A stretch of 64,000 bases of DNA from assembly GCA_002633005.1 (NCBI GenBank), contig NMRA01000091.1:615979-679978 (forward strand), in the 5' to 3' direction. The notes below the pieces were generated by a model that was given only the letters and a program-made list of their open reading frames with translations, had not been told where the DNA came from and ran no database searches. Every line of letters begins with the position of its first letter. The first letter of the stretch is position 1. The stretch is from Phoronis australis. Its lineage: Eukaryota > Animalia > Phoronida. This document shows positions 34,275 through 58,305 of this stretch, one piece after another. Made by a program: the position numbers and the translations under genes.

Positions 34275-35820
34275 GCTTACGTACAGCTTGTTCAGTATGC
34301 TCGTTCTCCTTTTCGCCTTTGAAACCCACAGATATTTATATTTATAAAATATCTTATCACAGCTCAAACTGGTTTTCACGGCAACGAAGAACAAGCTGCT
34401 CGTACTTGCGTGGCGACAGGTCACAGATTTGAGCATTCAGATTTATGGAGTCGGTGGTCCAAGTAATACGGTTTCTAACCAGAACTGGACGTCCCTTCAT
34501 TTTCAAAGAACTTTCTTGTACAGTCTGAAATTTTGACTGCAAATACACGTCTTTCAAGTAAATTCAAATTGGAAAAAATCTGGTTGGTAAGCGACATATT
34601 TTAATTAAAATTTCTGGAGTCTGGAGGGCAAGAGTATTTGGAGTCTTGTCTCTGCTCAAGGACCGGGGTATTCGTGAGTTTGGGATTTGGGCCGGGGAGA
34701 AAAATCACAACATTCATTGGCATTTTGACGAATTGTGGCATCTCCTTTTTCCGGGAATCGATGCAAGGCGAGAGATTCTTCATCCAGCACAACCGAGTGA
34801 TTTCACAGCGTATTCACGTTCCTTTTTCAGGCACGTTGATACTCAATAAGAGTGTTAAAGGTTTTTGTTGAATCAGTTGCATGGTAATTGCCGTGAGACC
34901 AAGCACTTAATTTGATCCGTGGTCTTTGCCAGAGTTTAATGTGTTTACTGAAATCGAAAGTAATTTGACATGTTCCTTGCCATTTTAGCATGGGAAATCA
35001 TGATAAATATCTGTTATTCTGTGCTCCAATATGATGGTTTAAAAGGAGACTAAACGCTATACTTTGATGATTGCCACCAATTCTCGTCACTCGGTCACCT
35101 GCTAATGCATCATTGGCGTCAATCTTGCAAGTTAAAGGCAGGAATTAACTAAGAACTCATAATCCCATCTCACAAATTCGATATGATGATCCTTTGTAGC
35201 TTGTCTTTTCCCTTTCCCACTGAATCCGTGTAATTCGCTAAAAGCGTAGGTCACGCTTGCCTAATTAGTTGACTTTGAAAGGAGTTTTCAAATTTTTGTC
35301 CAAACTTTTGAGACTTGTAGAGGGTCACAGAGCATAATTTTGTTTCAGAGAACTGCCGAACCTGCTTTTAATATCTGTTGGTTGGCGAAAACCGGGTTTG
35401 GCATTCTTTTAAACACACGGGTGTCTCAAGTTTCCACTTGACGACCCTTCTATTCGTGCTACAAACACGAATGAAAACTCCGAGCTAAAATTAACGGTTT
35501 AGACTCGATCTTCCAGCTTCAAAGCTGGGTCCATCAAGTGTAAACTAGGATTGATAGTCATATACGTATTTAAAAATAAACCAGTGTACAAGGTCGAGCA
35601 CACAATTACCGACACGTTTGAATTTGCACAGAAGAAGAACAGAAATTTGTCAAAAAATTCGAGTGCAAATATTAGACCCCATTCCATTATGCGCCTTGTG
35701 ACGAAAGTGTGACGACATAATGACATGAGTCGCACACCACGTTCACCTTCTCTGTCGATCATCTAACAGTAGACCGTGGAGAAATTGTAATGTGTCGTTT
35801 AATCGAGTTTTGATCAAAGC

Positions 35821-36547
35821 ATGTGGTGGACGTTCCGATGTATGACATCGTTTACTTTTGCCACGGTACTAGTTATTGACATATATAGTTCATATACATC
35901 GGGTTGGGAGTTGCCAGTGTTTCGTCGTATGTGTCCTCAACAGGATCTGGTCGTTTATTTCATGGAAGGCAAATACCACTATTCTCAGGAGTCCGGTTAT
36001 CAAATGATTGGAACATTTCTGCAAATGTTGGCTCAATATATTTATCAATCGTGCAACAGCACTATGGCTGCTTTTGCGTACGACTTCAGTTACGTGAATA
36101 GAAGTTCTCCTATTCGAAACCACCATCCCTACGGCTCTTGTCAATATGAGCAATGCGCCGTTAAAAATTTCTATCGCCTTACAACAGCTAAGGAGAGTGA
36201 ACTTACTGAGAAAAGGGCGATTTTGGTCAACGCTGTTAAGCATGCCCGAAAGGAGGTTTTACCAAGTTTTAAATCGAGAGTAAAGACGGTAATGTTCGTA
36301 TCAAATGTCATTCCTAAGCCCGCACAGCGTAGGAGAGCCAAATATCAGTTTAAACTCATGAAGAAGGAGTTTAGAGGCGTACGATTGTATTACATTCACG
36401 TCAACGATAAGGCGGTTGACACCAACAACGTTTTGAGAGACTTTGGAGTAGATTATTTCGACATAAGACATGTATGGCTTGACATAGTGAATAGTATTAG
36501 CCACTTGATAAAGGCTTTGAACGACTACTGTTGTCAACAGAACTTCA
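35821..36547 (+). CDS. Large first coding exon of an uncharacterised gene: putative signal peptide plus divergent VWA-like domain
   Basis: Uninterrupted 244-codon ORF; VWA-like pattern C..DLVVYFMEG / KTVMFVSN / GVRLYYIHVN; perfect ca|GTAAGT phase-1 donor at 36548 just before the ORF stop (unspliced form would end at 36555). Confidence 0.8.
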
Positions 36548-37039
36548 GTAAGTAGGTTTCAGTATTTTATTTTCACCACTAAAAGTATTATTGGCTATTA
36601 CAACATGCAATTTGAAAGAGATAATATTGCATAGCACCAAAAACGTTAAACCTCTACACAAACCAATATAAATGTACAGTTTTGGATCGGTCGAAATAAA
36701 AAATGAAAAATGACAAAATACATGTTAAATGAATTGTTTCCGTTATTGTGTCGCTAATTTTGTGGATCATTTTCGTGCTGTGTTTTCTCCGTGAGAGTGT
36801 TCTCTCCTGTGCCATTAGAGGTGGAATTATGGAGGTCTCTGGGAACTCCATGAAACGAATGATTATGTAAAGTGTGTAACCAAAACTTAATTGAATACGA
36901 AATTCATTTTATTATCGTTTGCACCAGATACAATTGTTGAAGAACGTAGTTTCCAAGTGAATGCTCCCCTTTAGACTTGTTTATAAATTATTCGGAGCTC
37001 TTGCAAGATTTTTAGTTAGGGCACTTTAGATTGTTGCAG

Positions 37040-37057
37040 AAACTGCGTATATTGGGT
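37040..37057 (+). CDS. Micro-exon 1 (18 nt, KTAYIG)
   Basis: ttgttgcag|aaactgcgtatattgggt|gtaagc; symmetric phase 1. Confidence 0.65.
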
Positions 37058-37820
37058 GTAAGCGTTTCTGTATTTCTTGGTATTCAGGTGACTTCTAAGC
37101 CTAAGAGTCTGGGAATGTGTTGCATGTGAAGCTTATTTGTTTTTGTATTGTATTCTGCGACGCATCCATGCCACTATAATTAATAAATTTACATCTTTAT
37201 TATGGCATGCAATTCGAAGGAGAAAATCTGGCATAACACCAAAAACGCTATAAAAACCTTAATACAAACCAATATAACTGTACGGCTTTGGATCGGTCTA
37301 GGTAAAAAAATGAAAAAATGATAAAATATGTCATTAAATGAAAATTACGCTCTTTCTTAGGAAACTAAATCTTTGCCGCCACTGAAGTCGCATTGTTTCC
37401 GTTATTGTGCTGCTACTGGTTCGTTTTCATGTTGTTTCTCCGTGAGTGTGTTCTATCTCGCATATCCTTCTCTCTTTGTTGAAAATCTCTGGTCCCTAAC
37501 TCCACCGCTGGCTTCCAACACCAAGAAAATCAACGATATTTGTCCGCTCTAAGCGTCTTATTCATCGAGTAAACTGATATTAAAATATTGCCGTTACATA
37601 GGGTATCCCAAATGTAACGACAGCCTAGTTTGAATGTCCACGCATTGTATTTGGGCTCAGAAACAACTCTTCATGAGCCATTTCTGAGCAACTATAAAAA
37701 TATCTCAAAAACGTAATTTCCGTGAACTTTAGGACATGGCCATTCATAAGTGCTTTGTCCATTCATTTCTCTCCCTGGAAAGTGTAAGGAATGTCGTTTG
37801 ATTTGATAATGGAAATAAAT

Positions 37821-38660
37821 ATAGATTATTACATGGCGAAGTCGTTATATCCGTAACTCCAGAGCCCGAGACGATTTTGGAGAATTATCTCCAAAATCCA
37901 CGAGGGCTCTAGATAAGGGGGATAAAGACTGAGAACATGTAATGATCTATTTATACTACTTACTGAACGATGAACATTGCAATGAACCGATCTACCTTTC
38001 TCGACTCGCCTCGGCTTTTGTGACTACTTTCTATGTCAGAGGCCTGGGGTCGGAGGTCGTGACCTTTTAAAAAATGGCGAGATTTTCTTGTTAAAATGAT
38101 GTTTTTACTTAAAACCAAATAAAATTGAAACAAAATAGAAATAAAGTGAATCTGTAAAATAATTTTTAAGCAACTAGTCTAGCTTACTTCGCATCGCTTT
38201 ATGCTAAGCTTCCACCGTGAAAGTATCGTCTGCAAAAGTAGGTTACCAATGGTTACTGAGTATAATGTCCAATTTAAAAGATCCCGACGACACGTTACTC
38301 GCATTCAAACTGGAGATCGAAGATTTACAAGTGAGAGAATATGTCATATGAATTTTACTGAATTAAAGATGTCGTTTATTGAAATTATGCGTCTTATTTT
38401 TCATAGCGTATAAATGTCGGTAAAATGCCGTTTGCTGAACATGCGATTGTTGCACGTGCTCATTTAAGTATTCCATTTTCACATTCGATGACGTCAGCTG
38501 CTGCGTGGTGCAGTGGTAAAGTCGACGACTCGAAACTCTTGCGGAGAAGGCTCGAAACCGGCCTCGGTTTCCCGCCAAAATGTTATTTAACGCCGTTAAA
38601 TAACCAAATGGGTTATTTAACGGTTCTATTGGCCATTCGAGGCTGATATTATGGTATAAT
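37821..38660 (+). mobile_element. About 840-bp non-autonomous element with internal tRNA-like cassette; second copy 58482-59277
   Basis: Two colinear copies with the same ends (ATAGATTATT ... GGTATAAT) in different flanks. Confidence 0.85.
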
Positions 38661-38833
38661 TGAAAGTATGGGCGAAGACGAACATTACCTTTATTTTAAC
38701 TCCTTCATAGCAGTAAAACATAAATTTGTGTTATCAAATTTTACTCAAAAGATATCCGCCTCCGACAGGAACACATTCCATTCCTCGGTATCGCATGTGG
38801 ATAACCTCGTTCCTAATGTCTTGTTCTTCTCAG

Positions 38834-38848
38834 GTCCTCGATGTCTCG
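38834..38848 (+). CDS. Micro-exon 2 (15 nt, CPRCL)
   Basis: ttgttcttctcag|gtcctcgatgtctcg|gtgaat; symmetric phase 1. Confidence 0.6.
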
Positions 38849-40663
38849 GTGAATTCTTTGGATTAGCTCGATCATGGCAGCTGGGGAGTCTGATATACTC
38901 TACATTACAGGAAACCCAACATTCACCAAACAGCCGGAGTGACGCTGTTTGTCTAATGTACATGTGCATGATTTAGGAAATGACGTACGTATTCAGCAAG
39001 TTCAGATTGTAGGGGTACCGGAACCAGTGAGATCCAACCACACTATCTATGCGCGCACCCAGCATAAAATGTAGGGGGGCTCGAATTTTTCGGTATGCGG
39101 ACCTTTTACTGAAAGAAATCAACGAGGACTAAAAAAAAAAAAACGCGACCACTAGGTTCAGGCCCGCGGTTTGTGCAACCGCGTCGACTTCCCCGTGAAT
39201 TTTGTGGACTTTCGTCGTTTACTCGGACTTTTTGTTTCACTGACGTGGACTCACTCGAGCTCCCCCCTGGGGGTGCGCCCATGTTGCTCAGCCTTTCGTT
39301 GGATGATCCGTCTGTGGTGACGATTTGGACGCGCGTTGTTGCCAGTAGCAGACTGGCTCTGGTTTATGCGTTTTATTTGGCTACTCTATTTGTTTATTAG
39401 GAGACAGCACTTGATTGACATGACCTATGAGGACAGGCCAATGACGACATTGTTCCCAATAGAATACTAGAGAACATTTTCGTAGATTCCAGTATATAGT
39501 GATTCATACAGGACATTCTGGAGCCTAGCACATGTTTGTAAAATGACCTGATAGATTTGGGAAAGTTGTAGAATGTACTTGAATTGGTGAAACGTTCAAC
39601 GTACACATAAATTAACGAGTGTTGAAGTGGTTCGAAGTTACTCAGCAGTTCATCACAATTCAAGGCTTCGCAGCACTGGCCAGAGCATAAAACATACAGC
39701 CAGTGCCAGCTGATCCACGTGGTAAAATGCGATAGTTTCTTTAACATGACCTGGCGTTCCATTGGTTTGAAGTACCATTCAGTGCTTAAATTGTTTCAAC
39801 ATCAATGAGACCACAGTGAACAAGGTGGCCATGCTATGTTAAAAGTACCAGTGGCTGTAGTTGAGTTGTCTCCGTAGATCTCCAGCCAAAATTTCCTAAT
39901 GGACACACTCTACAGGGATGCAGTCCAAAGTCAAGTTATTCGACTGCGACAGATTGGTAGAGTGCGACGTATTTTCTTCTGCTGATTGCTGTACTGTGTT
40001 TGGATTTTATTTGAACGTTTTCACGTGCGTGGGCAACCTGATTTAGCCTCGTTGCCCACAGATAGGATTTTTTTGAATTGGGTAAACATACTCTATCTGG
40101 TCTTGGCACTCGGAGTCAGAGTTAGGTATCTGGCTGGCAGCCTTCTGTACCTAGCTCTGCGCAATACCTCAGTTTCCTCTCATTCTTTCTTCCGTGTGTC
40201 CCTGTGGATCTAAACTGTCTTCAGCATATCTTGTGGCGCTTTTGCATTGCCCACCAAAGATTATTAATTTTGTACATATTTTATCTTATTTTCATCCCTA
40301 TTCTTTGTATTTGTTTCCGACCCTGTTGCGCGTGCGCGATATTGACACCGGCACACACGGACCAGGCAGGTGTTCAGTAACGCTAGGACCTACGCTAGGA
40401 CCTGGTAAAAATCTGGCCAAAGTCACGTGTTCTCATTTGAAATACACGGCAATATCTCACGTAATCTCGTGAAGTCTTGCCTTTTAGCGAGGTTCTAGCG
40501 TTACTGAACGGTAGGCAGTATTTTCTATTTTATTCTGGTTATCCGTCGGAGCATAAATTGGGTGTAATTTCATTGCGCCGAGTCTGTTTGCATCACTAAA
40601 GGGCCTGGCTTAAGTTATCTGGAGCCTTATTTAGAGACCTTCATTCTACCTCGTATATCAAAA

Positions 40664-40960
40664 TAGGCTATGTCAACTAGTAAAAGTACACATATTCTGA
40701 AAGGAAAAAGATCAGAGATTATAAGAAATATGTTTTATATCTATGTGCCTCTATCATTATTACGTTACCTCCTTTTTAAGTCAGAATTTCATTTTAAGGA
40801 AGGTACGTTCATAGCCAAATAATCCCTTGTTCGATTTTAATGGAACTCTTTTTTAAATGAAAACTTCACAATTTACCTCAAAAACACTGTAAGGAATTTT
40901 CCATTACTCATTCAATTTTGTTCCTATTTCAAATTAACTCGCAAAACGTATGTGTGAGGT
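40664..40960 (+). repeat. Dispersed DNA-transposon-like repeat, second copy about 63656-63890
   Basis: aggct.tgtcaac.agtaaa.gta...ctgaaag and colinear similarity; boundaries approximate. Confidence 0.6.
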
Positions 40961-42291
40961 ATTTTTCTGAAAAATAGCAGTCGTATTCGTCTATCTTACG
41001 TTTGGCAAAAACTAGTCGTTTACAAGGAAAATCCACAAGTGGTGAATAAATATTAAAATGGAAAGTTTCTGTGAAATTCACCGAGCCGTTTTCGAGAACT
41101 CGTGTTCCTAAGCTCAAATTAAATCATTTTGCCGAAGCCGAGGGAGTCATGATATCAAGAAACTAAGTGCGAAATGGACAACAGGTTTAGCAATTTGCTG
41201 TGTTAGAACACAAAATCACAGAGGCTGTGGTGCAGCAACTCCGATGACTTTCTCAACGGTCGTATGCATGCAGTCGCACAACTCCCTCAGAATACAAACT
41301 ACATTATTCTTCGTTTTGCGCGGCATCTTTCTATGCTACAGTATGTACACCTCATTCACTATAATATGACGAAACGGTGAATGAATAGGACGGAGGGTAC
41401 ACGGAACTGGCGGTGGATGATTTGTTTTGAGTGACAGCCCTGTAATCTTTGACCTTGGATAAGTAGTAAACATGAATTTCCACGCTGTTGAAGGTGGTTT
41501 CACTAAATCTTTTTTCTCGTTATATGCATGGTACATATTTCGTATTAGAAATAACCCCGAGAATGAAAATGAGGTATTTTCTTGGCATAAGTGAAATATA
41601 GTAAAAGTGGCCAATTTTTGTGAATAAGGTTTGAGATATCGTTTAATGGTCTGATTCATGGTCCAGGGCCATGCCTCTCTTGACTATGAACACCGGCACA
41701 TTTTCGCGGGAACAAGTCGGTTATCAATCCGCTGTAAAAGGAGTCAAGTGGCATTGCAGCATCGGGGAAATTGTTGTACAGTGAGGTTCAGGTGTTGCGA
41801 CTAAACATTTTTCGCATCTAGTTATCCACCTTTACGAATGGTCATGATCTTCATCTAATGTTTTACTTTGATTTCTATAATTCTCTATCCTGTCCCAACT
41901 TAACTTTTGCACAAACATGCTCAATTCCTTCAATAGAGGTCGCTTTCGTCGAGGTGTTTTTGTTGTTTCTCTTGAATTAACTCGCATATTTTAAGAGGAA
42001 AATTGATGCACTTAGTAAAAACAACAAAAATATAAAATGTTAAATAACCGGAGCCATAATTTTTACATTACCAGAATAAACAATTACCAGTTGTTTGTAT
42101 ATTTTGCAGTAACTTTGTATTGTATAAGAGTCCAGTGGTCTCACTGAGGACGGAATTCCATATTAAATATAACAGCACATAAACGACCTGTCAACTTTCT
42201 GGGCATTTCAGTTTACCGCGTTCTACTTTGACACATATAACATTGGTAATTGTCTGCACGTGTAATCAATTTACTTTTTGTGAAATTGCAG

Positions 42292-42306
42292 ATAGGCCTG
42301 ATAAAG
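42292..42306 (+). CDS. Micro-exon 3 (15 nt, DRPDK)
   Basis: aattgcag|ataggcctgataaag|gtaaga. Confidence 0.65.
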
Positions 42307-42841
42307 GTAAGAGTTATTTACTTGAGTTTATTTACAAAATCACATGCACACATGTTATGCTATCATGAATTTCCAAAAGAGCCATCGCCAAGAAAGAACA
42401 CCCATGGGGTCTATTTTAGGAAGAAGGTTTGAAAAGCCCAGATGGTCTCTTCTGGAATCATTTTGTATGCCGCGTTTATCAGAAATCTAACTTTTAAAAA
42501 ATCCGCTCGGGTCCTGCGCAAAGGTTCTCCCAAGAGTTCCGTAAATTGCATTTGATGTACAAGTGAAGTTTTAGTTCAATTTAACACCTTGGTCCAGTTG
42601 CATAAAAGTTATACGCCGTATAGCAACAATGACCTCGCATTATCACGCGTCACGTTGCTATTGTTGAACAATGCACCTGACGTCATGCAACAATCAAACT
42701 TATCCAGCGGATAATTTTTGAAGCTTTATGCAACTCAGCCCTGACGACCACTAAATTGAAGTTACAAACTCAAGTAAAACACACAATTTCGAGTTCATAT
42801 ATGAACTTACAGTAACCACAGATGTGTTTTGTGTTTTACAG

Positions 42842-42856
42842 ATGCTCTTCGTTGTG
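42842..42856 (+). CDS. Micro-exon 4 (15 nt, DALRC)
   Basis: gttttacag|atgctcttcgttgtg|gtatgt. Confidence 0.65.
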
Positions 42857-43283
42857 GTATGTTATATGGTACTAAGTCAATTTATATGCGTTACTGCACT
42901 TCAACTTTACGAACGATCAGTTTTGGCTGTGATCTCCATGACTACAAAATTGACTATCGGTTTTGGTTTATTTTCGGATTTGCGGTTAGAAATACCAATG
43001 CTATCCAATGAAGTAATGTGTACTTGACATGTCGAAAAAGTGAAATCATCTTAGTAACAAGACTGTGCGAAATGAGGTGAGCGTGCGAAATATTAAGAAT
43101 ATTACTGTACTTAGCTGAAACGAGTTGTGCTATGGGTATGTAGCAACGATTCCGTATGACGTGACGGCGACAATTTGTAAAAGGTGGAGCCATTAACATT
43201 GTTGCGAAATTATTAAAAAAAATTAGTTTTGATGAAATCTGCACAACATTATGTTTGTAAATGGCTTGAATTTTATATTTCAG

Positions 43284-43304
43284 ATAAGTACGGGAAGCCA
43301 CTAT
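43284..43304 (+). CDS. Micro-exon 5 (21 nt, DKYGKPL)
   Basis: tatttcag|ataagtacgggaagccactat|gtaagc. Confidence 0.65.
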
Positions 43305-43486
43305 GTAAGCTAATCAGAACATTTACCTGGCTAATTCAGCCCATACGCCTAAATCATATTCTTGATCACATACAAATGTTTCCTTTGTAAGCGTATGTAT
43401 TGCTGCACTCGGCACATTGTGGCTCGGGTGGCTGCATATGCCTACATATAGCGCAAAAACATGTGACACAACACTTATTTATACAG

Positions 43487-43501
43487 GCACCTATCCTCTG
43501 T
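43487..43501 (+). CDS. Micro-exon 6 (15 nt, CTYPL)
   Basis: tttatacag|gcacctatcctctgt|gtaagt. Confidence 0.65.
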
Positions 43502-43673
43502 GTAAGTGCATGTCTTAACTGCGTGTTTGTCCATTCTTAATAATTTTTTGTTCAGACAGTCGCCAGGTATCAATCGAAGTACATGTATGTTCATTTACCA
43601 ATCGGATGGAGATTTGTGATAAAGATATGGCTACTAGAAACCATTTTCCTAAAGCATTTTTTGTGAAAGACAG

Positions 43674-43858
43674 ATGAGAGTGTCGATGGATTTCGAGTTA
43701 AAATGTTTGTCAACGGAAACTGTGTAAATATGAACACAAGTATTCTAACCGTTCAACTGAGCGAGCAGAATTTATTCCATTCCCAAATCTGGCAAACGTC
43801 AAGAAATATCGAAGAAAAATGGGCCCGGGAGTGCCGGAGATTATACGACCAGTGCTGA
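43674..43858 (+). CDS. Possible alternative terminal exon (..ESVDGFRVKMFVNGNC...ECRRLYDQC*)
   Basis: cag acceptor in phase 1 (or aag acceptor at 43669 after a 29-nt exon 43556-43584); about 62 open codons, AATAAA at 43946. Confidence 0.35.
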
Positions 43859-44362
43859 ACGTGAATCGTGTCAGTGGTAAAGTGTCAGCTGTATGCTTAT
43901 ATAAAAATACTCAGCAGGCTCAGATGTCATTTTTTATAAATTTCCAATAAAAGGCAGGAATAGCAAAATTGTACGCAGAATAGCCTGAGGGGACATAGTT
44001 AATGCTCGCTCAGGAGTAATCCAGGGTCGGTTACTTCACCAGTGGCAAGGCCTGCATCTTTTACCTCTTCTTTATGTGGTAACTTTTCCTGTTGCCTTTC
44101 CATTCCAACCTGTCTGAAAGCTCAAAATTGACCCAATTCCTGCAAATTCAATCTATCTGTGACCTACCTAGTTTAAGGAGTTCATTCAGGGCTGAGTTAC
44201 ATCAACAGAAAGGCGTTAGTTTGTCTTTGTGGAGAGAAATCTTGGCTTATGGAACAAAAATGAACCCAGTCCCACAATTCGACACCCCAATCTCCACTTA
44301 AGTGGCCGACATTTTACTGGAATAGGCAGGTAACTTGAGATCCAGAATATACAACCCAAACC

Positions 44363-44832
44363 ACCCGTTCCAATCGCCGTAACACCATTCAAGAGTCTAT
44401 TAAATGCAAGCCGTTACATGCTTGCAGCTCACTGTATTATATTACTACAATACATTACACACCATAACACTCTTCAACGAGTCCTACATTCGTTTTTCAG
44501 TGAGCTCCAGGATCAAGTCTATGTTTACTCTTGTTGCCAAGATTTTCGCTTATGTTCAGGTTCGAGACTAGCAGCAAACTGTATTTCGGGCCGAATTTAC
44601 AAAATGGCAGCCTCAGATGAAAGTACCGCTATCCCAGAGCTCTTATGTCTCGCGACTTCAAACTTTTTTTCTTTGCTCAAAGAAAAGGCCGTCTCATTGT
44701 GGGCACTGTGGCACTCGTTGAAGAGTGTTACGGTGTATAATGTATTATAGTAATATATTACAGTGAGCTGCAAGTATGTAACGTCTTGCATTTTGTAGGG
44801 TCTTGAATGCTGTTACGGCGTTTGGAACGGGT
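44363..44832. mobile_element. MITE with about 120-bp imperfect TIRs
   Basis: ACCCGTTCCAA.CGCCGTAACA...CTCTTCAACGAG and its reverse complement at 44712-44832; CC on both flanks (possible 2-bp TSD). Confidence 0.8.
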
Positions 44833-47489
44833 CCAACAGTCGCGTTTCATTCGCGTGACTGGCGATGTCGTGCGAGATCTTCATTTCTTTATGTGGGTGA
44901 TCCTTTATGAATCCCCAATATTCCTCAACTGCTCGTGAATTTTCCAAAACATTTCGCTGAAAGAATTGAAACCAACCTGTGAAAGGTTCGTTGAATTATT
45001 ATGAACTTTCAAGACATTGTTACAGCGTGTGATGTGATGTAGCCACAGGTGGCTTGCTGACATGACTAAAGGTTTGCGATAAGCAATTTTCCTTATAAAT
45101 TTGTTTGTAATTCTCTCTGGCTTCGAAACCCAACATTTTTCTTCAAAAAGCCTTTCAGCTTTAAATGTTCAACAAAATTTACTGAACAGTCGTCTTCGTT
45201 GTATTGGCAATGACGGCTTATAGAACCAAAATTATTTAAATTGCCCACGATTTTGTATAGATACAGCTAATTTCTTGAGTCCGCTATCACTGAAGAGGCC
45301 ACCCTCATTTTAAATATCATAATAATAATAATAATAATTTATCAGCCCAAAGTTCGCATTGATGATTTGTTAGCAGCTATAAATCCTTTACACTTCATAT
45401 CTTGAATACTATATATAATACGTAAACGGATCGTGGACCCGTTTTATGAAAGAAATGAAGTCCGTTCACGGCACATCACTATCAATGTTTGTTGTTTATG
45501 CCAAATGTTGATTCTGTCTTAAACATGACCGTAATCTTATGAAAATAGAAGTACCACCTTGGTGAACCGCTTTACTGAATTATTTGCCAATAAAATTTGA
45601 AAAAAAGACCGTCTTAGCTACGACCAGACTTCCCATCTCCGATAAAACGTGTCCCTTGTGTTTTGTGCTTGATTGCCCTTGTGTCGAGATTACATTTTCT
45701 GATATTAACACTGTTTCAAAATGCTTCCAGCCGTACAACGACCTCTTGAGCCACTTCACCATTTGTCCACACAAGGTTTGTATTGCAAGATTTAAATCTG
45801 AATATTTGAAATTTCATCGAATTTGCTAGCGTAATAAATTGGGCGGGTTACGCTCTGTGTTTACGTCGTCAACCACTCATTTTACTAACACCCTTTAACT
45901 GCTAGAGAATTTAGACAAATTCTCTGATATTGGGTATTTTCTTGTGCTTCAGTGACCAATAGTAGGACTGTAGAAGATTTTGATTTGCTTTTCTATCGGT
46001 AACCGCCTGCGGTTGAGTCTGTTATTAGTGCTAAAAGATGGAGGTAGAATGGTGAATTCCGTGACACGACGAAGACCTGTGTTTTGTAATCTCCGTAACC
46101 TGTTGACTTGGTCCCGGCTCTTATAATGCATTACTAGATACCTCTCTTCCAATTTCTGTGCAGCAGCTCTCACAGCATTTGTAGGTGCGAATGTCGCCCT
46201 GTACATGAGTCATCGGTAGATGCAACTCATGTGTGCCAAGATGTTGCGCAAAATGATTAGTGGGGATTCCAAGGTTGGCTTTATTCGATTTCCCACGTGC
46301 TTGTCTGCACTGAAATCACGAATCCAACGAGTAACTCACCGTGTCGCTTTATGCAAGCGTGCTAAAGAAGGCAAACCTGAAAAGTCAAAACCTTATGACG
46401 TAAGACACAGGTGTGGAGCGATAGAGGAGTATTTTAAAAAATCAGTGTGGTTCTACCTTACCAAACTCATACAATGTATTTAGATAAATTGACCTATTGC
46501 CAGGCTTATGACTGACGGCTTAACCAACCAATCAAAACGCAGCATTCTCGATACACCTTCGTCTGCGTTTCCAAGCCGCCATTTTACCCGACAAACAATG
46601 TCGTTGTCGGTAAAACTTATTTTAGTCTATAGATAAAAAAATGTTTGACAAAATGGTGAAACGGTGTTGATATGGCGTGTGTAGTTCTGATTGCCGTTAT
46701 ACACCTAGAGAAGAATATCCCGTCATTTTTTTGGGCATTCCCTAAGCCGAAAAGTGTCGACTGTGAAAACGATGGATCAAACTGTGAACGGCCAGACGAC
46801 ACACGAGCAGCTAAACATAACAATGTTGCTGGATTACTCGAAGGGTAAACACATATACATTTGTTCCAAGATACGTACTTTTCAGTTTGGTGGCTATACT
46901 GTAGGCCTATCTGATTTTGACTCCGGAGTTTCAATCGTGTGAGGGCCTCTGTCTCGGCATCAGCTGGATCCCAGCACAAGTCTAGCAGTAGTCCCCGGAA
47001 AGTTGTTTTTAAGGACATTTTTATTGTTTTTCATTTATTTCTACCTATAATGGACACCGTTCTGTGTCGTAGCACAGGTACAGTTTTTGTTATTCATATA
47101 CCCGTTGGCTGGTGTTCAACTGAACTTCTCACCAAAATTGATGGATTCGATGGCACATGCTGGGAGGGCACTAAAGTACTGAAATCAAAGCATCGTTCGA
47201 GCTGTTGTCACGAAAAAATAAACAGTTGAATTACTTTTTGATAAGAACTTATAGTATACACTACGCCTGTAGCTATAAGGAGAGCTCCTTTTGTTGTTGT
47301 TCAAACACGATACGTGGATTTATGAAGCTTTAAAAAGCAATTTTAGTTATTTTTGTAAATGGACACTTTTTTCCACTACACCAGACTCGTCATCTTTTGT
47401 TACCATACCACAGCTTTGTGATCATGCTACGTTTAAAATTAAATGCGAAATACCTTTATGCAATGAAACTACAAAATTTATGAAGCCTA

Positions 47490-47840
47490 GCTTAAATGTC
47501 CACATCTTCGGGGTCTGTTAGCTAAGCTGAGAACTGTTTGTTCAAACCACTCCATGTACAAGTTGGCAAAGACTGGTGATAGTGGCGAACCCATTGTCAT
47601 TCTTTGTGTCTGCTCGTAGAACTTGTCTCGGTACTGGAAGTAGGTGGTATTGACACAGAATGTCACTAATTCCAGAATGGAGCCTGTTGGGATGTTTACA
47701 TCCTCTGATGGCTTGTGGTCATGTTCTAATTTTGATCTGAGTAATGGGAGGATCTCTGATGTTGGTACACTTGTGAATAGGATTTCGACATCAAAGCTCA
47801 CCATGGTGTCATCTGGTGTAATGCTGACTGAAGACAACAT
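47490..47840 (-). mobile_element. Penelope-like retroelement reverse transcriptase fragment
   Basis: VSFDVEILFTSVP, TYFQYRDKFYEQ and MGSPLSPVFANLYME are typical PLE RT motifs; truncated before the YxDD motif. Confidence 0.9.
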
Positions 47841-47957
47841 GACACGAAGTGCTTCGGGTCCTTTACGTACTAGGCAGTTTTCCCAACTAGTGGGGATATG
47901 ATGTTGTGGAGGAATCTAGCATTTCTGTATATTAACATTCATTGAAAATATTTTCAG

Positions 47958-47978
47958 CTTTAAGCCGGTACAGAAAAG
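47958..47978 (+). CDS. Micro-exon 7 (21 nt, SLSRYRK)
   Basis: attttcag|ctttaagccggtacagaaaag|gtaagt; phase 0 excluded by TAA. Confidence 0.7.
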
Positions 47979-48962
47979 GTAAGTCCGAACAACCGAACGC
48001 TCACTCTTACAAGATTTGATAATCTTTAGATTAAACCGTACCTATGTAGAAAATATCTTCGGATCTTTCAAGTCATGTAGAATGTACCAAAATAAAACAG
48101 GTTTCATAGTGTTCCTTACTGGAAGGATGTTTGGTTTGAAGTGTTGTACTGCAGTATGCGCGTTGGGAATGGCTGAGTAAATGGTCAGTTTATATTTAGA
48201 GTAACGTATATCCAGCCATGATTCATACTCTTTCAATGAACTGTAGAGGACTCTGCGATACTTTCAAAAGAAAAAGAAAGTTACATGTATGTAAACAGTC
48301 AAAAATATTCGATTAACTGTCTCCAAGACACAATTTCTGTGGACAGTAACTTAAAACGCCCGTCTGTCAAAAGTGGTAAGAAAAATTGTATCGCAGGAAC
48401 TTTACAAGTATGAAGATATCCTATTAAAATGTCTTCACGCTTATGATGTTATTGATTGACTAATATCCAATGACCAAAATAGTTAGGAGACCACATATAC
48501 TGTTCTTGAATATATCATGTCATGCTTATTTTCCTTGTTTTTATTGTTTTCAACGTTTTGATAGATGAATGATGGTATAAAACTCCGCGCTATCATTTCT
48601 TGTCAAATACTTTGGAGTCGCCAGTTAAAGGCGAAGGCAACCTTTTTCCATGTCATTTTGAGCTAAAATAAGGTTGGTTGGTTATCCTAGACATATTTTT
48701 CACTTAATTACAGCTTTTCGTAATTTTATTAATTACTCGTCCGCTTTTCCGGAAGTGACGTTTTAGGAGGCAAGCGCTTCCCGCCACTTGGTTTTGCGTT
48801 GAGCTTACTGTGCGAATCTGTTCTATTCTACTTTTGTTTTGTGCTATTTTTCACCAATTGTCGCCACCACTTTCCATCGGCGAGTATTCTGCGGCAAGAT
48901 AGGTTAGTAGAGAACTCAACTGCGTTGGATTTAGGGATTGTTTAGTGTGTTGTAAGCTGAAA

Positions 48963-49236
48963 ATGGCTGGAGTCGGTGACCCGTATCACAGTGACAGTAG
49001 TGTGAGTGACGGAGACCTTGTTCACAGCAGTGGTGACGAGGAATTTTTTCACGGACATTCAGTGGGTGGGTACATGTTTGAGCCCGAGTACAACGAGGCA
49101 GAGTACACACAGGCACAGGCAGCTGTTGAGAGAAACGAGGCGGCTACTGAAGACAGACGTGGTGACACATCTTGGTGCAAATGCACTGTGTGCGTTGTTA
49201 TGCCTACCTCAATTGAATGCTTGTGCTGTTCCGAGT
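48963..49236 (+). pseudogene. KolX accessory protein fragment (P2X7 ballast-like Cys cluster)
   Basis: YMFEPEY followed by WCKCTVCVVMPTSIECLCCSE, the motif shared by KolX and the P2X7 C-terminal domain; cut at the deletion junction. Confidence 0.85.
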
Positions 49237-50304
49237 TCCACATCAATTATCTTTTTGGTCTCTTCCTCCATTAGAGTGTATGTGGTATACTTGGCGGACC
49301 GCCCTGGTGAGTCAGACAAGTTCTCCTTCTCCATGAATTCCGCCACCAACTCGAGATGTTGTGACATGTATGCGTCATTGACAACTGGTATTAAATAGGA
49401 ATTCTGAATGTTGTTGAATGTTGTTTTCGAAAAAAAACTTGACTTTTCCAAAGTCCATCATTGTCTTCACCGACTGAAACGTGTTTCCAGTGAAGAGCAC
49501 ACCACTGGACATGGTTAAGTGGACCTCCGGCATACCACGGACAGAGGAACAACTGTCCCACTTGCCAGAGTGTCCCGTGACACACTCCCACTGGATGGTG
49601 ACCTGAGCACCCAAACTGCTTACATTGTGTCGTGTGACTCCCTCGCCACACACCTGGCACCTTCTAAATAGCTCCAACACTTTAGACAAGTCCACAATAA
49701 ACTTATCAAAGTTTGGCTCACCGATCTGTTCACTGGACGACGAACTGTCCTCTTCACTGGGTGTCGAACTGGGCCTGTAATCACTCCCACTACTCAATAT
49801 CGCTGCAGGGCTGCTTAGAGGCTCTGGGCTGGAGAAAACAGCACAGGGCGAATCACTACTGGTTCCAGGAATTGCACGCTCTGGGGTACGTTCGGAGGCA
49901 CGGGTGACAGTAGATGAAGTGCCTCCACTGGCTCCAGTCACTGTACTGGCCACAGCTCGCGAGGCTTCTCGCTTCAAAAACGCACTTCTCGGGGGTGGCG
50001 ACGGGGCACTGCCGGGAATCAACACAGACGGAATGGCATCCTTCTTCAAGCGTTGTTTCGCGGGGACCTTCATCAGTTCAGCGTACAAATCCCTTTCGTA
50101 ATCGGACGGCAGAAAGTGCTTGCCACACACACGGTAATTCTCCACTGCTTTGTACGTTGCGTGGACGGGTAACGCTGCGTTCTTCACACGAACGAGCCAA
50201 GTACGGCGAAGTGTGTCATCCATCGGAAAGCGATGCAAAGGCACTCCCAAAGCGCGCGTGAGCCGATAATTACTACATCCCGGTACGCAGCAACAGTGTG
50301 GCAT
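49235..50304 (-). pseudogene. Kolobok THAP transposase, frameshifted and 3'-truncated
   Basis: THAP C2CH (CCVPGC..W..VCGKHF..AIPS), CQVC..WEC..GH zinc motif, frameshift in the A-run near 49435, then DSPGRSAKY..YTLM motif. Confidence 0.88.
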
Positions 50305-51043
50305 GTTGACTGACTAGTAAATGAAAGCGAACGACGACGGAACTTAACACAACCGAGGTAGAACAATGACTGACTCGGCAGCTCTCACAGTCAGACTATG
50401 TGAAAAGAAATTGGCGGGAAGCGCTTGCCTCCTAAAACGTCACTTCCGGAAAAGCGGACGAATAATTAATAAAGTTACGAAAAGCTGTAATTAAGTGAAA
50501 AATATGTCTAGGATAACCAACCAACCTTATTTTAGCTCAAAATGACATGGAAAAAGGTTGCCTTCGCCTTTAAGACCTTGTCACACTATGACGAATAGCC
50601 TCAGTGCACGCGAATTTTTTTAGATTTTTTGTGATTTCTGAAGTCATGTACCACCGTAAACTCTTGTTATTTTATGGAGTTGCGACGGTCGCAACAACCT
50701 AAAATGACGACAGTTAATTCCTAACTGTCAAACGGAATTCGCCGTTTTCCTAAAAACATTAAAAAATTGCTGTAGGCATACGCTGGGCATACACCGAGCA
50801 TACGCTGGACCAATTCGCCACAATGTAACGAGCCTTAAAGTTTCGGGGAGCGGGGAGTACAAACGGAGAATGGATGTTAGCGTAGACCACAGGAGATCTT
50901 TTGTGATTAACAGGCCGCGGTACTATCGTGACCCTTTGTGTCTCTCGTATCTGCGCATACACTACAGAAGTACATGTATTAGTGTCTCACGCCACCTCAG
51001 TATTGTCCAGTTGTTGGCGATAGTAAGTGACGCATGTGCCGAA

Positions 51044-51186
51044 TATTTGCGAGGGAACGTAAAAAAGCGAGGGAACGCAAAAAAGTACGAGGGTAAACAA
51101 AATTTTTGCAATGGAATGCAAAATATTTGCGAGGGAACGCAAAGTATTTGCGAGAGAACGCAAAAATTATGCGAGAACGTAAAAAT
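51044..51186 (+). repeat. Degenerate minisatellite, about 7 units of about 21 bp (TTTGCGAGGGAACGCAAAA..)
   Basis: Visible tandem units; accounts for the repetitive tail of ORF 50870-51226. Confidence 0.8.
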
Positions 51187-51831
51187 CTTGATTTTTTCTC
51201 ATCATGCCCCTTTGAGATCTCGGTAAAAGTGTCCTAATTTAACCGACAAGATCGACCAGCCAATGCGCTCCATAATTGATCATGGGTGGTTTTCAGGCTA
51301 AAACGAGTTGGTGACAATCCAGGGTGTATTCGAAATGGCATGAATGCAGCATAGTGATGATCCGTTCGTTTTCTTTCGAAAATTATCAGTTTCCATAGAA
51401 CCCACTCTCCTGTCCGTTTGTAAACTTTTTGAATCGATTTGACTACTAAGTACTCTACCAAAATTAAATATCCAATATGCTGGACGTAACAGCAGAAACG
51501 CGTATTCAAGAAATGCGCAGACGAGAATGATAATTTTCACACATCCTTTACGGAAGAATTTGTTGGCTGGACTGAAATGGTATCTTTAATTTATTTTCCC
51601 TTGTTTTATCGCATTCATCACTTCCATAGTAATTCAAGAATAGATCTTGCGCCCGAGTACATGTACTAGTGAGTGTAGTTTGGAGGTTGACATTTCTGAA
51701 CTCGAATAAGCACAGTTTGTTGTGAAAGTCTCTAAATAATTTAAGAGTCTGAGTAAGCCCGTTAAGGGCCACTGGTCAGTTGTCAAAATTTGCAGTTCTG
51801 TATATTTAACAATCCTTGTAATTATTTTCAG

Positions 51832-51852
51832 CCCGGGCCGCGTATATGCAAT
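51832..51852 (+). CDS. Micro-exon 8 (21 nt, ARAAYMQ)
   Basis: attttcag|cccgggccgcgtatatgcaat|gtaagt; flanks homologous to those of micro-exon 7. Confidence 0.7.
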
Positions 51853-52181
51853 GTAAGTCGGAACAACTCTTGACAATCTTTAGATTTAACCACGTCTTGT
51901 GTAGAAATCAACTTTTGATATGTTGGGTCTTGTAGAATCTTAGGAAACTGGTGTTCAGAAGAACTGTTAGTTCACTGTCTCCTCCTCAGCGGGTTAGTTT
52001 TAGCCTCCAAAATAATATGTTTGTCATGGAAACCCCATGCATTTTGTTGTATGCAAATTTAATTTAAATGTCAAGAAAATTGTTCCTGACACTAGTGCCC
52101 GCTTGCATGAAACAGTCCCAACAGCGAATCAACTGTGTTTCCAAAGCTGCCTGCCCATTTGTGGATTTTGTGCAAATACAG

Positions 52182-52216
52182 ATTGTCTTCATTGTTGGAT
52201 CAATTCCGTAGCGTGA
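52182..52216 (+). CDS. Putative terminal coding exon of the micro-exon gene (YCLHCWINSVA*)
   Basis: aatacag acceptor, phase 1, TGA at 52214-52216, AATAAA at 52251. Confidence 0.55.
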
Positions 52217-53455
52217 GTAATCCCTACTTTAAATCCGAAATAGTATTGGAAATAAACGTTGACCATTTCATTCAACGTCACTCCCTAATTTGTGGACCTA
52301 GTTCTTATTCATTTCCTTGAAATAAGAGTCCAGTAATTACGTTATCTTACATATAATATAGGGGCTCATAATAAATATCAATTGTTAGAAAAATGTAACA
52401 TTAGTGAACAAACGTAATCTTTATACGTTGAAATTGGGGGAATCAAATTGAATGCCTATTGGGCAACCGGCTACAGGTCATAGCTTACAGCGATTATAAG
52501 TATTTGAGATTGCAATAATGTTTACGTATAGATTCCATTTTTACAAGATTGTCGCCGTTAACTTTTGTTTGTTTCCTTTTGATGCCCACATTTTACGAAA
52601 TAAGAAAACAATGGATTGATCTCCGAATTCATTCTCACCATTTTAGCTCAAGTGACGTCACATCAAAATACGCAACTTGACCTGATCAGAAGTGTGCTAT
52701 TTCACAAACACAATTTTTCCCGTTGCATTTCACCAATGGCGATTACGTTATTTGTCGTGACAGCGCAATGAGTAGATACTTGATGCGAACAATCTAAAAT
52801 AAGAAGATTCCTGTTTAATAAATTCAAAAGTCTCTGAACAGTTACATCAAACAATCCCAATACTGACTCAACTATGTTTCCTAAAATTTCAGAGCCTCGG
52901 TGGACTTCGTGTAAAAGTTATTGTATCGTTTCTGATATCTCATCTTCATTGCTACCCCAAGTTTTAGCTTTGGCACAGAGCGAGACTAAACTTCACGTTG
53001 ATTTCTTATTATTATTGAAATAAACGAGAACTTTTTCATGCAACGTCGCTAACTTAGGACTTATTTCTTATATGTTTCTATTGAAGTAAAAACTCAATTT
53101 TCGGGGCCATTTTTAGAAAATGTCACAAGTAAGAGATGGCTCGAACTTAAGGAAAATGCACCACACAAGTGAATAAAAAAGTCAAAAAATGAAACTGTAA
53201 CATGCAACCGGCCACTGATGTCTAAATTTGAGTTTACCTGTTTTTATTATGACGCAAATGCTCTATCATTAAACCAGAAGAGAACAAAACACAATGCAGA
53301 ATCAACGTTTTTAAAATTATCTGTAATTTGAATATTAAATATATTCAAATGATTTTTATGTTAGTCAATGTCGTGCAACAACGACTGCTTCCAGGCTCTT
53401 TGGCAAGGTGTGTCCAACCTCTGTAATATAGATTTTTGCATAGCTTTTGCTTAAA

Positions 53456-56400: not shown

Positions 56401-58305
56401 TGGTACCCGCTAGGATGTGCCCACCGGTAATACAGTTGCAAAGACTAAACAAGTAGGCAGATTGGAAGATTTTACCCATGAGGAATCCAATGATGTCGTA
56501 TCCTCAATAGTCATAATCATGTGATCAGTGTAATGGACCCGGCCTTGTGACCTAAATATGCCTGATGTACCGCAAAAGGCATCAGGACAACTGTACTATT
56601 TTTTAAGTATACATGTATGGGGGAAGTCTTGCAAGTGCACTGCAGTATTCGGACTACCTCGTGTATTTCGCAGCCTCGTGTTTCCCCTCGGAGGTGTGTT
56701 ATATATGCACACAAGCATCACAGCAAAAGGTTAGATCGTGGTCTCAAATGTCAAAAGTCTTACTCGAAGTCATTCTGCATCCTGCAGAGGCCTGTTTCAA
56801 GAAAAGTGACTTAATACCTTAAATAAAAAAATATCTAATCTAAGACTAAAATTCGGATGACGAAAATCCAGGAAAGACCGTTTCTTGAACACAAAGTATT
56901 TTTCGTTTGTTTGTTTGTTCTTAATCAAAAACGAATAGATAGGAAGACTAACCACCAGATTGGCCACACCCTTGCTTTCCTGGATGGTGGCGACACCTAG
57001 TGGGTGTGTATGACGAGGAGGTATGACAGACGTTGCCAATCATGTTCGATTTTATTTTGCCAAAACACTGAGAGTACGAAATATGAGCAGTGCATTGGAA
57101 AAATACACACACACAGGCGAAAGCTTGAGTAAATCGAAACCAATCAGACAACGAAGCCAAAGAAAATTGAGGGAAATTCACCATAGCAAGGGGGTAACTA
57201 ATCTGCGGTGACTGGGTGGAAAAGGGCGACTGGAGTATGGGCAGGTACAAATCCTGCAGAATTTTGTCCCGGGAAAGGTCTGGGAAATAATAAACATAGA
57301 ACAGGCCTACTTAAGGCACCAGCTAAACCGGTACATTTCTTTCCAAAGTGCCTCTTACGACATCTGAATAGGGGTCCCTTTTTCGCAAAATTCACAAGTT
57401 ACGACACCCCACACTCAAGCAGGGCTCATGGATACCCTGGATACTAGCCTGGTGGGATCTAAAATGAGTAGAGGTTGGGGTGGAGGTGGTCAGTCAAATT
57501 GGGTGTCACGGGCAGAGTGGCTGAAAATCGGTTGTGAGATGGAATTCCTGTCTGTGTAGGTATAGGTCTGAGCCTGAGTCAAGTCTGAGTTCAGAGATAA
57601 GACTCTGGATGTATGGCTTAATATCCAGCAAACGTGTTTCCATGTTTGTTCTCTGTAAATCGTTGATTGATCTGCAGTGCAAGTGTACAAAGCTCACTTT
57701 AAAATTACACGTACCTGTCTGCTTTCCTAAACAAGTAATGGTTGTACTTAAAGACGTAGGAAAATTGCGTGACTGCATGCTTTTGCCGATGCTCTGGGGT
57801 TCAATAGACATGACGGAACTATGTATTAGCTCTGAATGGGGCATTTTACGTTCTTCTTTCTATGCGTTAAACTTTAACTTGTTGAAGAAACAGAACAAGA
57901 TTGGGCATTTCCAAAAGTCAAAATGCCGGCTATTGCAAACTGTTGCAGCACACTGTAGAATAAAACAATTAGATGAGGTGACATTGAAACACCCTGTTCG
58001 CGCAAGCTTAACCTTATGCTTTAGTTGAGTTTCACGACAATAATCCACCCGTTAATAACCATGATATCCACTCTGTGGCAGAGTTAGGTAAATCCTATTT
58101 GTATAACCCAAATGTTGCATTAGCAGGGGACAGAACGAGGATTAGTTCAAATCACCTCTTGGCTCCTTCGTAAACTAGAATCTCAGTTGCTAACCCCTAG
58201 GTCTGTAGGGTGTGCCAAGAAAGTTCGCAGCTCATAGTTGAGACGCTAGAATCTTGCCTAAACTTGTGTTTAACGGAACGTGCACTTAATTCCTCAAAAG
58301 ATAAA
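53456..58305 (+). repeat. 2.29-kb direct duplication (53456-55742, 56019-58305) either side of an N gap
   Basis: Highly similar copies with scattered SNPs and indels; both abut the gap exactly. Confidence 0.92.
54990..55610 (-). mobile_element. Decayed CR1/L2-like LINE fragment (APE endonuclease N-terminus), duplicated at about 57560-58190
   Basis: KVSFVHLHCRSI...KPYIEGLISE(L) resembles the APE N(C/I)RS..DII.ISETW motifs; heavily frameshifted. Confidence 0.5.

What the first reader, a model, noticed from the sequence alone, without database searches (positions are those of the whole stretch)
35821..52216. Candidate micro-exon gene: secreted VWA-like domain plus a Cys-rich tail built from eight symmetric 15-21 nt exons
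Seen: the 244-aa ORF has a perfect GTAAGT donor at 36548 (phase 1), two codons before its stop. Downstream lie eight AG/GT-bounded segments, all multiples of 3: 37040-37057 (18 nt), 38834-38848 (15), 42292-42306 (15), 42842-42856 (15), 43284-43304 (21), 43487-43501 (15), 47958-47978 (21) and 51832-51852 (21). A phase-1 exon at 52182 then ends in TGA with AATAAA 35 nt later. Joined CDS is 903 nt (300 aa) with no stop, ending ..DYCCQQNF-KTAYIG-CPRCL-DRPDK-DALRC-DKYGKPL-CTYPL-SLSRYRK-ARAAYMQ-YCLHCWINSVA* (8 Cys). Known: tandem symmetric micro-exons in secreted proteins define the schistosome micro-exon genes (MEGs), where exon skipping generates variants. Inference: this is a MEG-like diversification system attached to an adhesion/recognition-type fold, with up to 256 in-frame skip combinations, which ORF finders would miss. 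A role in gamete, immune or matrix recognition is speculation.
Basis: partly seen in the sequence, partly recalled or inferred. Interest (0 to 1): 0.9.

Follow-up and report, generated by a model that had tools for sequence, protein, structure and literature searches.

The report
Orphan gene with micro-exon-built protein tail
This invertebrate gene is transcribed and joins one large exon to a chain of tiny 15-45-base exons; it likely makes a secreted, adhesion-domain-like protein whose short tail would vary by exon skipping, a layout we found described only in parasitic flatworms.

Summary
The micro-exons are real. All eight segments are AG/GT-bounded and 3n, and they are the only 15/18/21-nt hits in the gene's introns, against 1 in about 107 kb of background. 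Stranded RNA reads from 2 of 3 raw-read runs carry five of them (42292, 42842, 43284, 47958, 51832) and a missed 45-nt exon, 45731-45775. The 300-aa join is not the observed product: the only listed joint leaving exon 1 (15 and 16 reads) skips 37040 and 38834. Exon 43487 and the last exon are unresolved. No ladder of skip isoforms was seen, but the joint table was cut and a second lay could not be had. Exon 1 has no sequence relative. A language model places it near VWA domains (0.93); the metal-binding motif looks lost. Micro-exons give about 15% of the coding sequence, so it fails the MEG definition. It resembles schistosome SmVAL6 (a domain plus a micro-exon tail), most likely by convergence in a non-flatworm invertebrate, with the tail grown by local cassette duplication. 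'256 variants' is not supported.

The parts
35747..36547 (+). Exon 1: 5' end near 35747, ATG at 35821, predicted signal peptide (hydrophobic residues 11-21) and VWA-like domain; phase-1 donor at 36548
   Evidence: stranded depth 11-14 per bin in X1 and X2, 0 in X3; 6 molecules end at 35747 in X1; hydropathy. VWA features 0.93
37040..37057 (+). Candidate 18-nt micro-exon; skipped in the listed joint; inclusion not shown
   Evidence: score 7.5; 181 bases of depth in its bin in X1, 0 in X2, source not resolved
38834..38848 (+). Candidate 15-nt micro-exon, weak donor; skipped in the listed joint; inclusion not shown
   Evidence: score 6.5
42292..42306 (+). 15-nt micro-exon, in RNA
   Evidence: table 5c: its letters follow 36547 in 14 reads of X1 and 16 of X2
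42842..42856 (+). 15-nt micro-exon, in RNA
   Evidence: table 5c, same reads
43284..43304 (+). 21-nt micro-exon, in RNA
   Evidence: joints 36547->43283 (15, 16 reads) and 43304->45731 (32, 28 reads)
43487..43501 (+). Candidate 15-nt micro-exon; unresolved
   Evidence: score 7.1; the joint across it is flagged 'between: not known'
43556..43584 (+). 29-nt AG/GT-bounded segment; possible frame-shifting exon; unresolved
   Evidence: score 6.2; 936 and 799 bases of stranded depth in bin 43438-44004; no joint from 43584 is listed
45731..45775 (+).
   Evidence: joints in (32, 28 reads, GT..AG) and out (31, 22 reads); scores
47958..47978 (+). 21-nt micro-exon, in RNA as two versions differing at two bases, both silent in the phase-1 frame
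   Evidence: table 5c (X1 18 and 13 reads); frame test
51832..51852 (+). 21-nt micro-exon, in RNA; its flanks are a duplicate of the 47958 cassette
   Evidence: joints to 51830; (z 21.8; blastn E 1e-6 and 5e-4)
52182..52256 (+). Candidate last exon with stop at 52214-52216 and AATAAA at 52251; weak acceptor; the stop lies inside a GTGAGT donor-like site
   Evidence: stranded depth 1,099 bases in X1 and 61 in X2 in bin 51943-52500; no joint listed
52893..53024 (+). Duplicate of the last-exon block with a stronger acceptor; candidate alternative last exon (joined to 51852 it gives an immediate stop); outside the stretch that was laid
   Evidence: E 0.002, 0.006; acceptor 3.7 against 0.0

Best explanation
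This is a transcribed, spliced gene in which one large exon is joined to at least six short phase-1 exons, and it likely encodes a secreted, degenerate VWA-like protein whose short basic tail is likely varied by regulated skipping of a few exons around one dominant form. Shown: the splicing of six internal exons (15, 15, 21, 45, 21, 21 nt), expression in 2 of 3 raw-read runs, skipping of two genomic candidates, and duplication of exon-plus-flank cassettes. Inferred: secretion; the VWA fold; loss of the metal-ion adhesion site; use of 37040, 38834 and 43487 in other tissues, stages or alleles; growth of the tail by tandem cassette duplication, tolerated because same-phase 3n exons keep the frame. 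Because the junction codons are split, skipping would also change the residue at each joint (Asp to Asn at 42292; some cysteines exist only with particular neighbours). The most likely role is extracellular: the domain as a metal-independent binding or oligomer scaffold and the tail as a tunable, disulfide-capable contact. That role is untested.
For: (boundaries, frame). (8 of 15 intronic hits against 1 in about 107 kb). (joints with 15-32 reads from 8-23 start places in X1; all on one strand; none in X3). Two differences in exon 47958 are both silent only in phase 1. Exon-1 joint lacks 37040 and 38834 although they score like the used exons (7.5 and 6.5 against 6.2-10.2). The joint 43304->45731 has no row of letters in table 5c although rows with 12-18 reads are shown, which fits mixed inserts. 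Last-exon bin differs 18-fold between runs (1,099 against 61 bases). Cassette duplication. VWA: (0.93; 10 of 10 best named hits in the VWA clan; recognition 2754); strand/helix order.
Against: No exon was seen both included and skipped in listed reads, so alternative splicing is inferred, not shown; 59 joints and 85 letter rows were not displayed. Under the Markov null (mean 0.58) one or two of the three unverified candidates could be chance. Pfam finds no VWA; shared features 139-149 of 256 are below the 170 typical of same-family hits; both structure models are poor (pLDDT 35.6 and 43.5). No signal-peptide predictor was run. The runs are of the same species label but probably other individuals, so skipped exons could be absent or broken in their alleles.
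Confidence: 0.5

Rival explanations
1. A true MEG-type diversifier: every micro-exon is skipped more or less freely, giving tens to hundreds of tail variants for immune, allo- or gamete recognition.
For: All RNA-shown internal exons are symmetric and phase 1. Two candidates are skipped; the middle joint looks mixed; the last exon differs between runs; expression is on or off by run. The exon-1 protein has no relative among 1.84 billion representatives, as expected of a fast-evolving gene.
Against: At the exon-1 donor 30 of 31 listed reads carry the same two exons, and the listed joints from 45731 all go through 47958 to 51832. No ladder is among the listed joints. The tail is only about 60-70 residues, 15% of the coding sequence from micro-exons.
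Confidence: 0.2
2. A constitutively spliced micro-exon tail with no regulated diversity; 37040, 38834 and perhaps 43487 are decayed duplicates, allele-specific pieces or chance sites.
For: One form dominates where letters are shown. Inclusion of 37040 and 38834 is not shown; 38834 has a weak donor (0.6). The introns are full of repeats and local duplications. Markov null allows up to 2 chance hits.
Against: Empirical background predicts about 0.15 chance hits in these introns (my arithmetic), so two or three stop-free, 3n, well-scoring decoys are unlikely. Run-to-run differences at the 3' end and the unresolved middle joint need another explanation.
Confidence: 0.2
3. An asymmetric 29-nt exon (43556-43584) is included after 43487, the frame shifts, the protein ends at 290 aa inside exon 47958, and the distal small exons are untranslated.
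For: The segment is AG/GT-bounded. Depth in its bin equals 29 bases times 32 and 28 reads, the counts of the joint that spans it. The shifted frame is open through 45731-45775, and both versions of exon 47958 keep the stop.
Against: No joint from 43584 is listed although it would be among the best supported. Both differences in 47958 are silent in phase 1, and the three distal exons are all 3n. My read-count bookkeeping (about 37 and 33 reads on exon 43284 against joint sums of 47 and 44) needs about 10 reads per run to show both joints, which fits an insert of 0-15 bases better than 44; this rests on assumptions about the tool.
Confidence: 0.1

Closest known systems
Schistosoma mansoni SmVAL6 (SCP/TAPS domain plus alternatively spliced micro-exon tail)
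   Same: A folded domain on conventional exons followed by a C-terminal region with no known relatives, built from very small exons. [quoted passage not shown]
   Different: SmVAL6 has 34 tail exons, 17 under 20 bp, documented extensive splicing, an SCP/TAPS domain and no signal peptide. Here there are 6 shown and up to 9 or 10 candidate exons, a VWA-like domain on a single 727-nt coding exon, a predicted signal peptide, and skipping is only inferred. No homology is implied.
Flatworm micro-exon genes (MEGs) of schistosomes and tapeworms
   Same: Consecutive symmetric exons, mostly 15-21 nt; introns of 0.18-3.9 kb, short at both ends (compare PMC10526429); predicted signal peptide; no sequence relatives; transposons in and around the gene and exon duplication (PMC4350168).
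   Different: In MEGs most of the coding region (up to 75%, PMC4015677) is micro-exons and the products lack known domains; here it is about 15%. MEGs are reported as restricted to platyhelminths (PMC4350168); this host's PSME3 is most like chiton, annelid, gastropod and brachiopod proteins (63-69% over 158 aa), with no flatworm name among the 120 listed hits.
Secreted single-VWA proteins (matrilin / collagen VI-type VWA, PF00092 clan)
   Same: Language-model features (0.91-0.93); alternating strand/helix order; cysteines at both ends of the domain (C38, C237/238), as recalled for VWA domains.
   Different: No Pfam or sequence match. The position of the recalled DxSxS metal motif reads E-G-K-Y-H (residues 49-53), so metal-ion adhesion is unlikely. 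The tail is made of micro-exons, not EGF, coiled-coil or collagen modules.

Membership tests
Micro-exon genes (MEG), classical definition | Most of the coding region is in very small symmetric exons (PMC4350168; up to 75% in PMC4015677) | tested here: not met
Micro-exon genes (MEG), classical definition | Micro-exons are symmetric (3n, same phase) | tested here: met
   6 of 6 RNA-shown internal exons are 3n and phase 1; a 29-nt segment at 43556 is unresolved
Micro-exon genes (MEG), classical definition | Signal peptide; secreted or membrane-anchored product | tested here: inconclusive
   One hydrophobic stretch at residues 11-21, mean hydropathy 2.15; no predictor or proteomics available
Micro-exon genes (MEG), classical definition | A pool of isoforms made by exon skipping | tested here: inconclusive
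   Two candidates skipped, one dominant form at exon 1, middle joint and 3' end unresolved; 59 joints not displayed
Micro-exon genes (MEG), classical definition | Platyhelminth host / homology to a MEG family | tested here: inconclusive
   PSME3 exons are closest to spiralian and other slowly evolving bilaterian proteins; no flatworm sequence was among the named hits to compare with, and the phylum is not resolved. No relative of exon 1 found
MEG, operational filter of bioRxiv 10.1101/2020.04.08.031872 | At least 7 exons, at least half of them under 70 nt and divisible by 3 | tested here: met
   Exon 1, six RNA-shown micro-exons and a last exon: 6 of at least 8 (definition)
MEG, operational filter of bioRxiv 10.1101/2020.04.08.031872 | A run of at least 4 consecutive micro-exons | tested here: inconclusive
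   Run of 6-7 if nothing or only 43487 lies between 43304 and 45731; broken into shorter runs if the 29-nt segment is an exon
VWA domain (PF00092 clan) | Profile match to VWA families | tested here: not met
   No VWA hit at E <= 1 for 244 aa or at E <= 10 for the 207-aa domain
VWA domain (PF00092 clan) | Rossmann-type alpha/beta VWA fold | tested here: inconclusive
   Atlas features 0.93 to VWA clusters in two searches that count as one source; single-sequence models of pLDDT 35.6 and 43.5 are too poor for fold search
VWA domain (PF00092 clan) | MIDAS motif DxSxS...T...D (motif recalled; absent in many VWA domains) | tested here: not met
   By eye, residues 49-53 after the first predicted strand read E-G-K-Y-H (sequence); the placement is not from an alignment

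The most novel reading that the evidence does not exclude
An independently evolved MEG-type diversifier outside the flatworms: a free-living invertebrate has bolted a duplicating, skippable micro-exon cassette and alternative last exons onto an orphan secreted VWA-like domain, so that tissues or individuals display different tail repertoires in self/non-self, gamete or microbe recognition.
Probability: 0.27. Interest if true: 0.85.

Novelty: new variant of a known kind. Interest (0 to 1): 0.62.

Why it matters
Tandem symmetric micro-exon genes are described as a flatworm-parasite device for varying secreted proteins, and their origin and purpose are open questions. An RNA-confirmed case on a different domain, in what looks like a non-flatworm invertebrate, suggests that the layout can arise by plain exon-cassette duplication without a vertebrate host. 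The duplicated flanks are still visible here, so the birth of such arrays can be studied directly. The gene is absent from all protein collections searched, which shows how such genes escape annotation. If skipping proves narrow, it remains a well-supported orphan gene with an unusual structure rather than a diversification system.

Tried and rejected
No whole genome is held, so paralogues and gene-family size could not be examined; within the window tblastn finds no second copy of exon 1. No RNA holder was listed by the word index; the four runs came by species label. Only one read lay is available, so the hidden joints remain unseen. Homologue searches with exon 1 were all empty: 0 of 76 candidates, 0 of 362 longer candidates at E <= 1, 0 of 1.84 billion representatives at E <= 0.001, best PDB sequence E 0.079, 0 of 148 metagenome stretches. 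Fold searches with poor models gave nothing usable: no Foldseek match at E <= 0.001; best Z 5.6, none at 8 or more, no VWA chain among the 50 rows shown; this does not exclude the fold. The bacterial promoter scan does not apply to an animal gene and was ignored. The top self-similarity pair (43487 with 43556, z 31.6) was dropped as an artefact of overlapping windows. The idea that exon 37040 is a duplicate of the end of exon 1 was rejected: the downstream introns share a block (79%) but the donors do not align. The read-through form that stops at 36555 is not dominant: depth after the donor is 181 bases in X1 and 0 in X2; an AATAAA at 36695 leaves a minor form possible. Host placement from PSME3 did not resolve a phylum. 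Three look-ups of earlier findings returned nothing. The original MEG paper (DeMarco 2010) is not held.
Full report
Observation. I scored acceptor and donor strength with recalled metazoan weights. The PSME3/CIR1 region gives 1 such segment among 10 hits in 32,337 bases, the stretch 52213-64000 gives none, and the whole minus strand gives 0 among 11 hits; 60 Markov simulations gave a mean of 0.58 and at most 2 (first pass). The threshold and length class were set after seeing the candidates, so this is a strong contrast, not a formal P value.

RNA. The run index listed no holder and offered four runs by species label. About 18-19% of each of three raw-read runs and all contigs of X4 were laid on 35500-52500. 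Exon 1 is covered in X1 and X2 on one strand only (first mate on minus, so the RNA is most likely plus), and not at all in X3 or X4. Six molecules end at 35747 in X1, the likely 5' end. Listed joints: 36547 to 43283 in 15 and 16 reads, with the letters of exons 42292 and 42842 between them in 14 and 16; 43304 to 45731 in 32 and 28 reads (GT..AG); 45775 or 45779 to 51830 in 18+13 and 17+5 reads, with the letters of exon 47958 between. So five of the eight micro-exons are spliced at the predicted boundaries, and a sixth exon, 45731-45775, was missed; it has a weak donor and is open in phase 1. Exon 47958 is read in two versions that differ at two bases; both changes are silent in phase 1 and not in the other frames, which supports coding in that frame.

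What the reads do not show. The listed joint from exon 1 skips 37040 and 38834; their inclusion is not shown (181 bases of depth in the 37040 bin of X1, none in X2). The joint across 43487 is flagged 'between: not known' and has no row of letters, although rows with 12-18 reads are displayed, so 43487 alone is not the recorded majority. Stranded depth of 936 and 799 bases in 43438-44004 is unexplained; a 29-nt AG/GT segment at 43556-43584 lies there and would shift the frame. No joint into 52182 is listed; that bin holds 1,099 bases in X1 and 61 in X2. The block 52100-52400 is duplicated at 52840-53170, and the second copy has the stronger acceptor (3.7 against 0.0) but lies beyond the stretch laid. 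One search left 59 joints, 85 letter rows and 1,412 loose ends undisplayed, and no further lay was obtained. Hence the 300-aa model is not the observed product, models consistent with the reads run from about 288 to 320 aa, and alternative splicing is likely but was not seen as include-and-skip of one exon.

The protein. Exon 1 has one hydrophobic stretch (residues 11-21), two N-glycosylation sequons (79, 93) and cysteines at 38 and 237/238. Pfam finds nothing significant and five sequence searches found no relative. The protein atlas places it, whole or as residues 34-240, beside VWA clusters at 0.93, with 10 of 10 best named hits in that clan but only 139-149 of 256 shared features, as for a distant relative or a chance hit. 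Single-sequence models are poor yet give the alternating strand/helix order expected of a VWA domain (recalled); fold searches with them are uninformative. At the place of the recalled DxSxS motif the sequence reads E-G-K-Y-H, so I infer a degenerate, metal-independent domain. The tail with all candidate exons is 73 residues, basic (12 K+R, 5 D+E) with 6 cysteines; the form seen at exon 1 lacks two of them.

Origin of the tail. The 47958 and 51832 cassettes share their flanking intron sequence (z 21.8; blastn E 1e-6 and 5e-4), the acceptor of 45731 resembles that of 47958 (z 5.4), the first two introns share a block (79%), and the last-exon block is doubled. The array therefore grew at least partly by local duplication of exon-plus-flank units. 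Inference: same-phase 3n units are tolerated, diverge quickly and are then open to skipping.

Host. Five PSME3 exons (158 aa) are at most 72% identical to any of the 120 listed proteins; the best named ones are chiton, annelid, gastropod, brachiopod and sea urchin at 66-69%. This is a bilaterian invertebrate without a close relative in the collection, leaning spiralian; no flatworm name was among the hits, so a flatworm host is unlikely but not excluded by a direct test.

Comparison with what is known. I read part 1 of 5 of PMC10526429 and passages of bioRxiv 10.1101/2020.04.08.031872, PMC4350168, PMC3435950 and PMC4015677; DeMarco 2010 was not available, and no supplements were read, so lists of MEG-like genes there could bear on novelty. 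The gene passes the exon-count part of the tapeworm paper's filter but fails the classical criterion that micro-exons make most of the coding region (15%). The closest layout is SmVAL6, a domain with a micro-exon tail. Nine searches of the open-access library (listings and abstract starts only) showed no VWA protein with such a tail and no MEG-type animal gene outside flatworms; subscription journals are not covered.

Verdict. A real, expressed micro-exon gene that works, in layout, like SmVAL6 and the MEGs but is not a member of the MEG family. The best reading is a secreted degenerate VWA-like protein with a duplication-built tail and limited, regulated skipping (0.5); free combinatorial diversification (0.2), a constitutive tail with dead candidates (0.2) and a frame-shifted shorter product (0.1) remain. 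Interest 0.62.

Noticed in passing
window 48625-50573: DNA-transposon-like element inside the intron between exons 47958 and 51832: 171-bp terminal inverted repeats at 97%, a THAP-domain ORF on minus (49378-50313, E 4e-15) and a P2RX7_C-like ORF on plus (48903-49271, E 6e-5). It draws the deepest read cover of the stretch in X1-X3 on both strands, probably from many copies.
   Followed up: partly
window 47490-47915 (minus): Reverse-transcriptase fragment (RVT_1, E 2.7e-4, below the curated cut-off) ending about 40 bases before the acceptor of exon 47958.
   Followed up: no
window 44363-44832: 126-bp inverted repeats at 89% enclosing about 470 bases; MITE-like.
   Followed up: no
window 45346-45600: AG acceptor after a TAA microsatellite, an in-frame stop after four codons and AATAAA at 45589; stranded depth 1,605 (X1) and 448 (X2) bases in this bin and reads 'cut' at 45307-45347. 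Possible minor alternative last exon or retained intron.
   Followed up: partly
window 43284-51852 against 36067-36547: The tail exons carry roughly twice the read depth of the 3' half of exon 1 (about 37-50 against 16 in X1; my arithmetic). Could be coverage bias, a strongly diverged second allele of exon 1, or another first exon.
   Followed up: partly
window 35790-35813: A 7-codon upstream ORF, out of frame, between the 5' end at 35747 and the main ATG.
   Followed up: no
window 52147: A weaker acceptor 35 bases upstream of 52182 would give a 21-residue hydrophobic end (possible membrane or GPI anchor signal) instead of the cysteine-containing end. No read evidence either way.
   Followed up: partly
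window 53456-55740 and 56019-58300: About 2.5-kb tandem duplication at 92-98% on either side of an assembly gap; possibly two haplotypes assembled in tandem.
   Followed up: no
window 37950-38660 and 58562-59277; 40363-40518 and 63025-63180: Dispersed repeats at 79-90% shared between the gene's introns and the downstream region.
   Followed up: no
The orphan gene starts about 2.6 kb after the latter's stop.
   Followed up: partly
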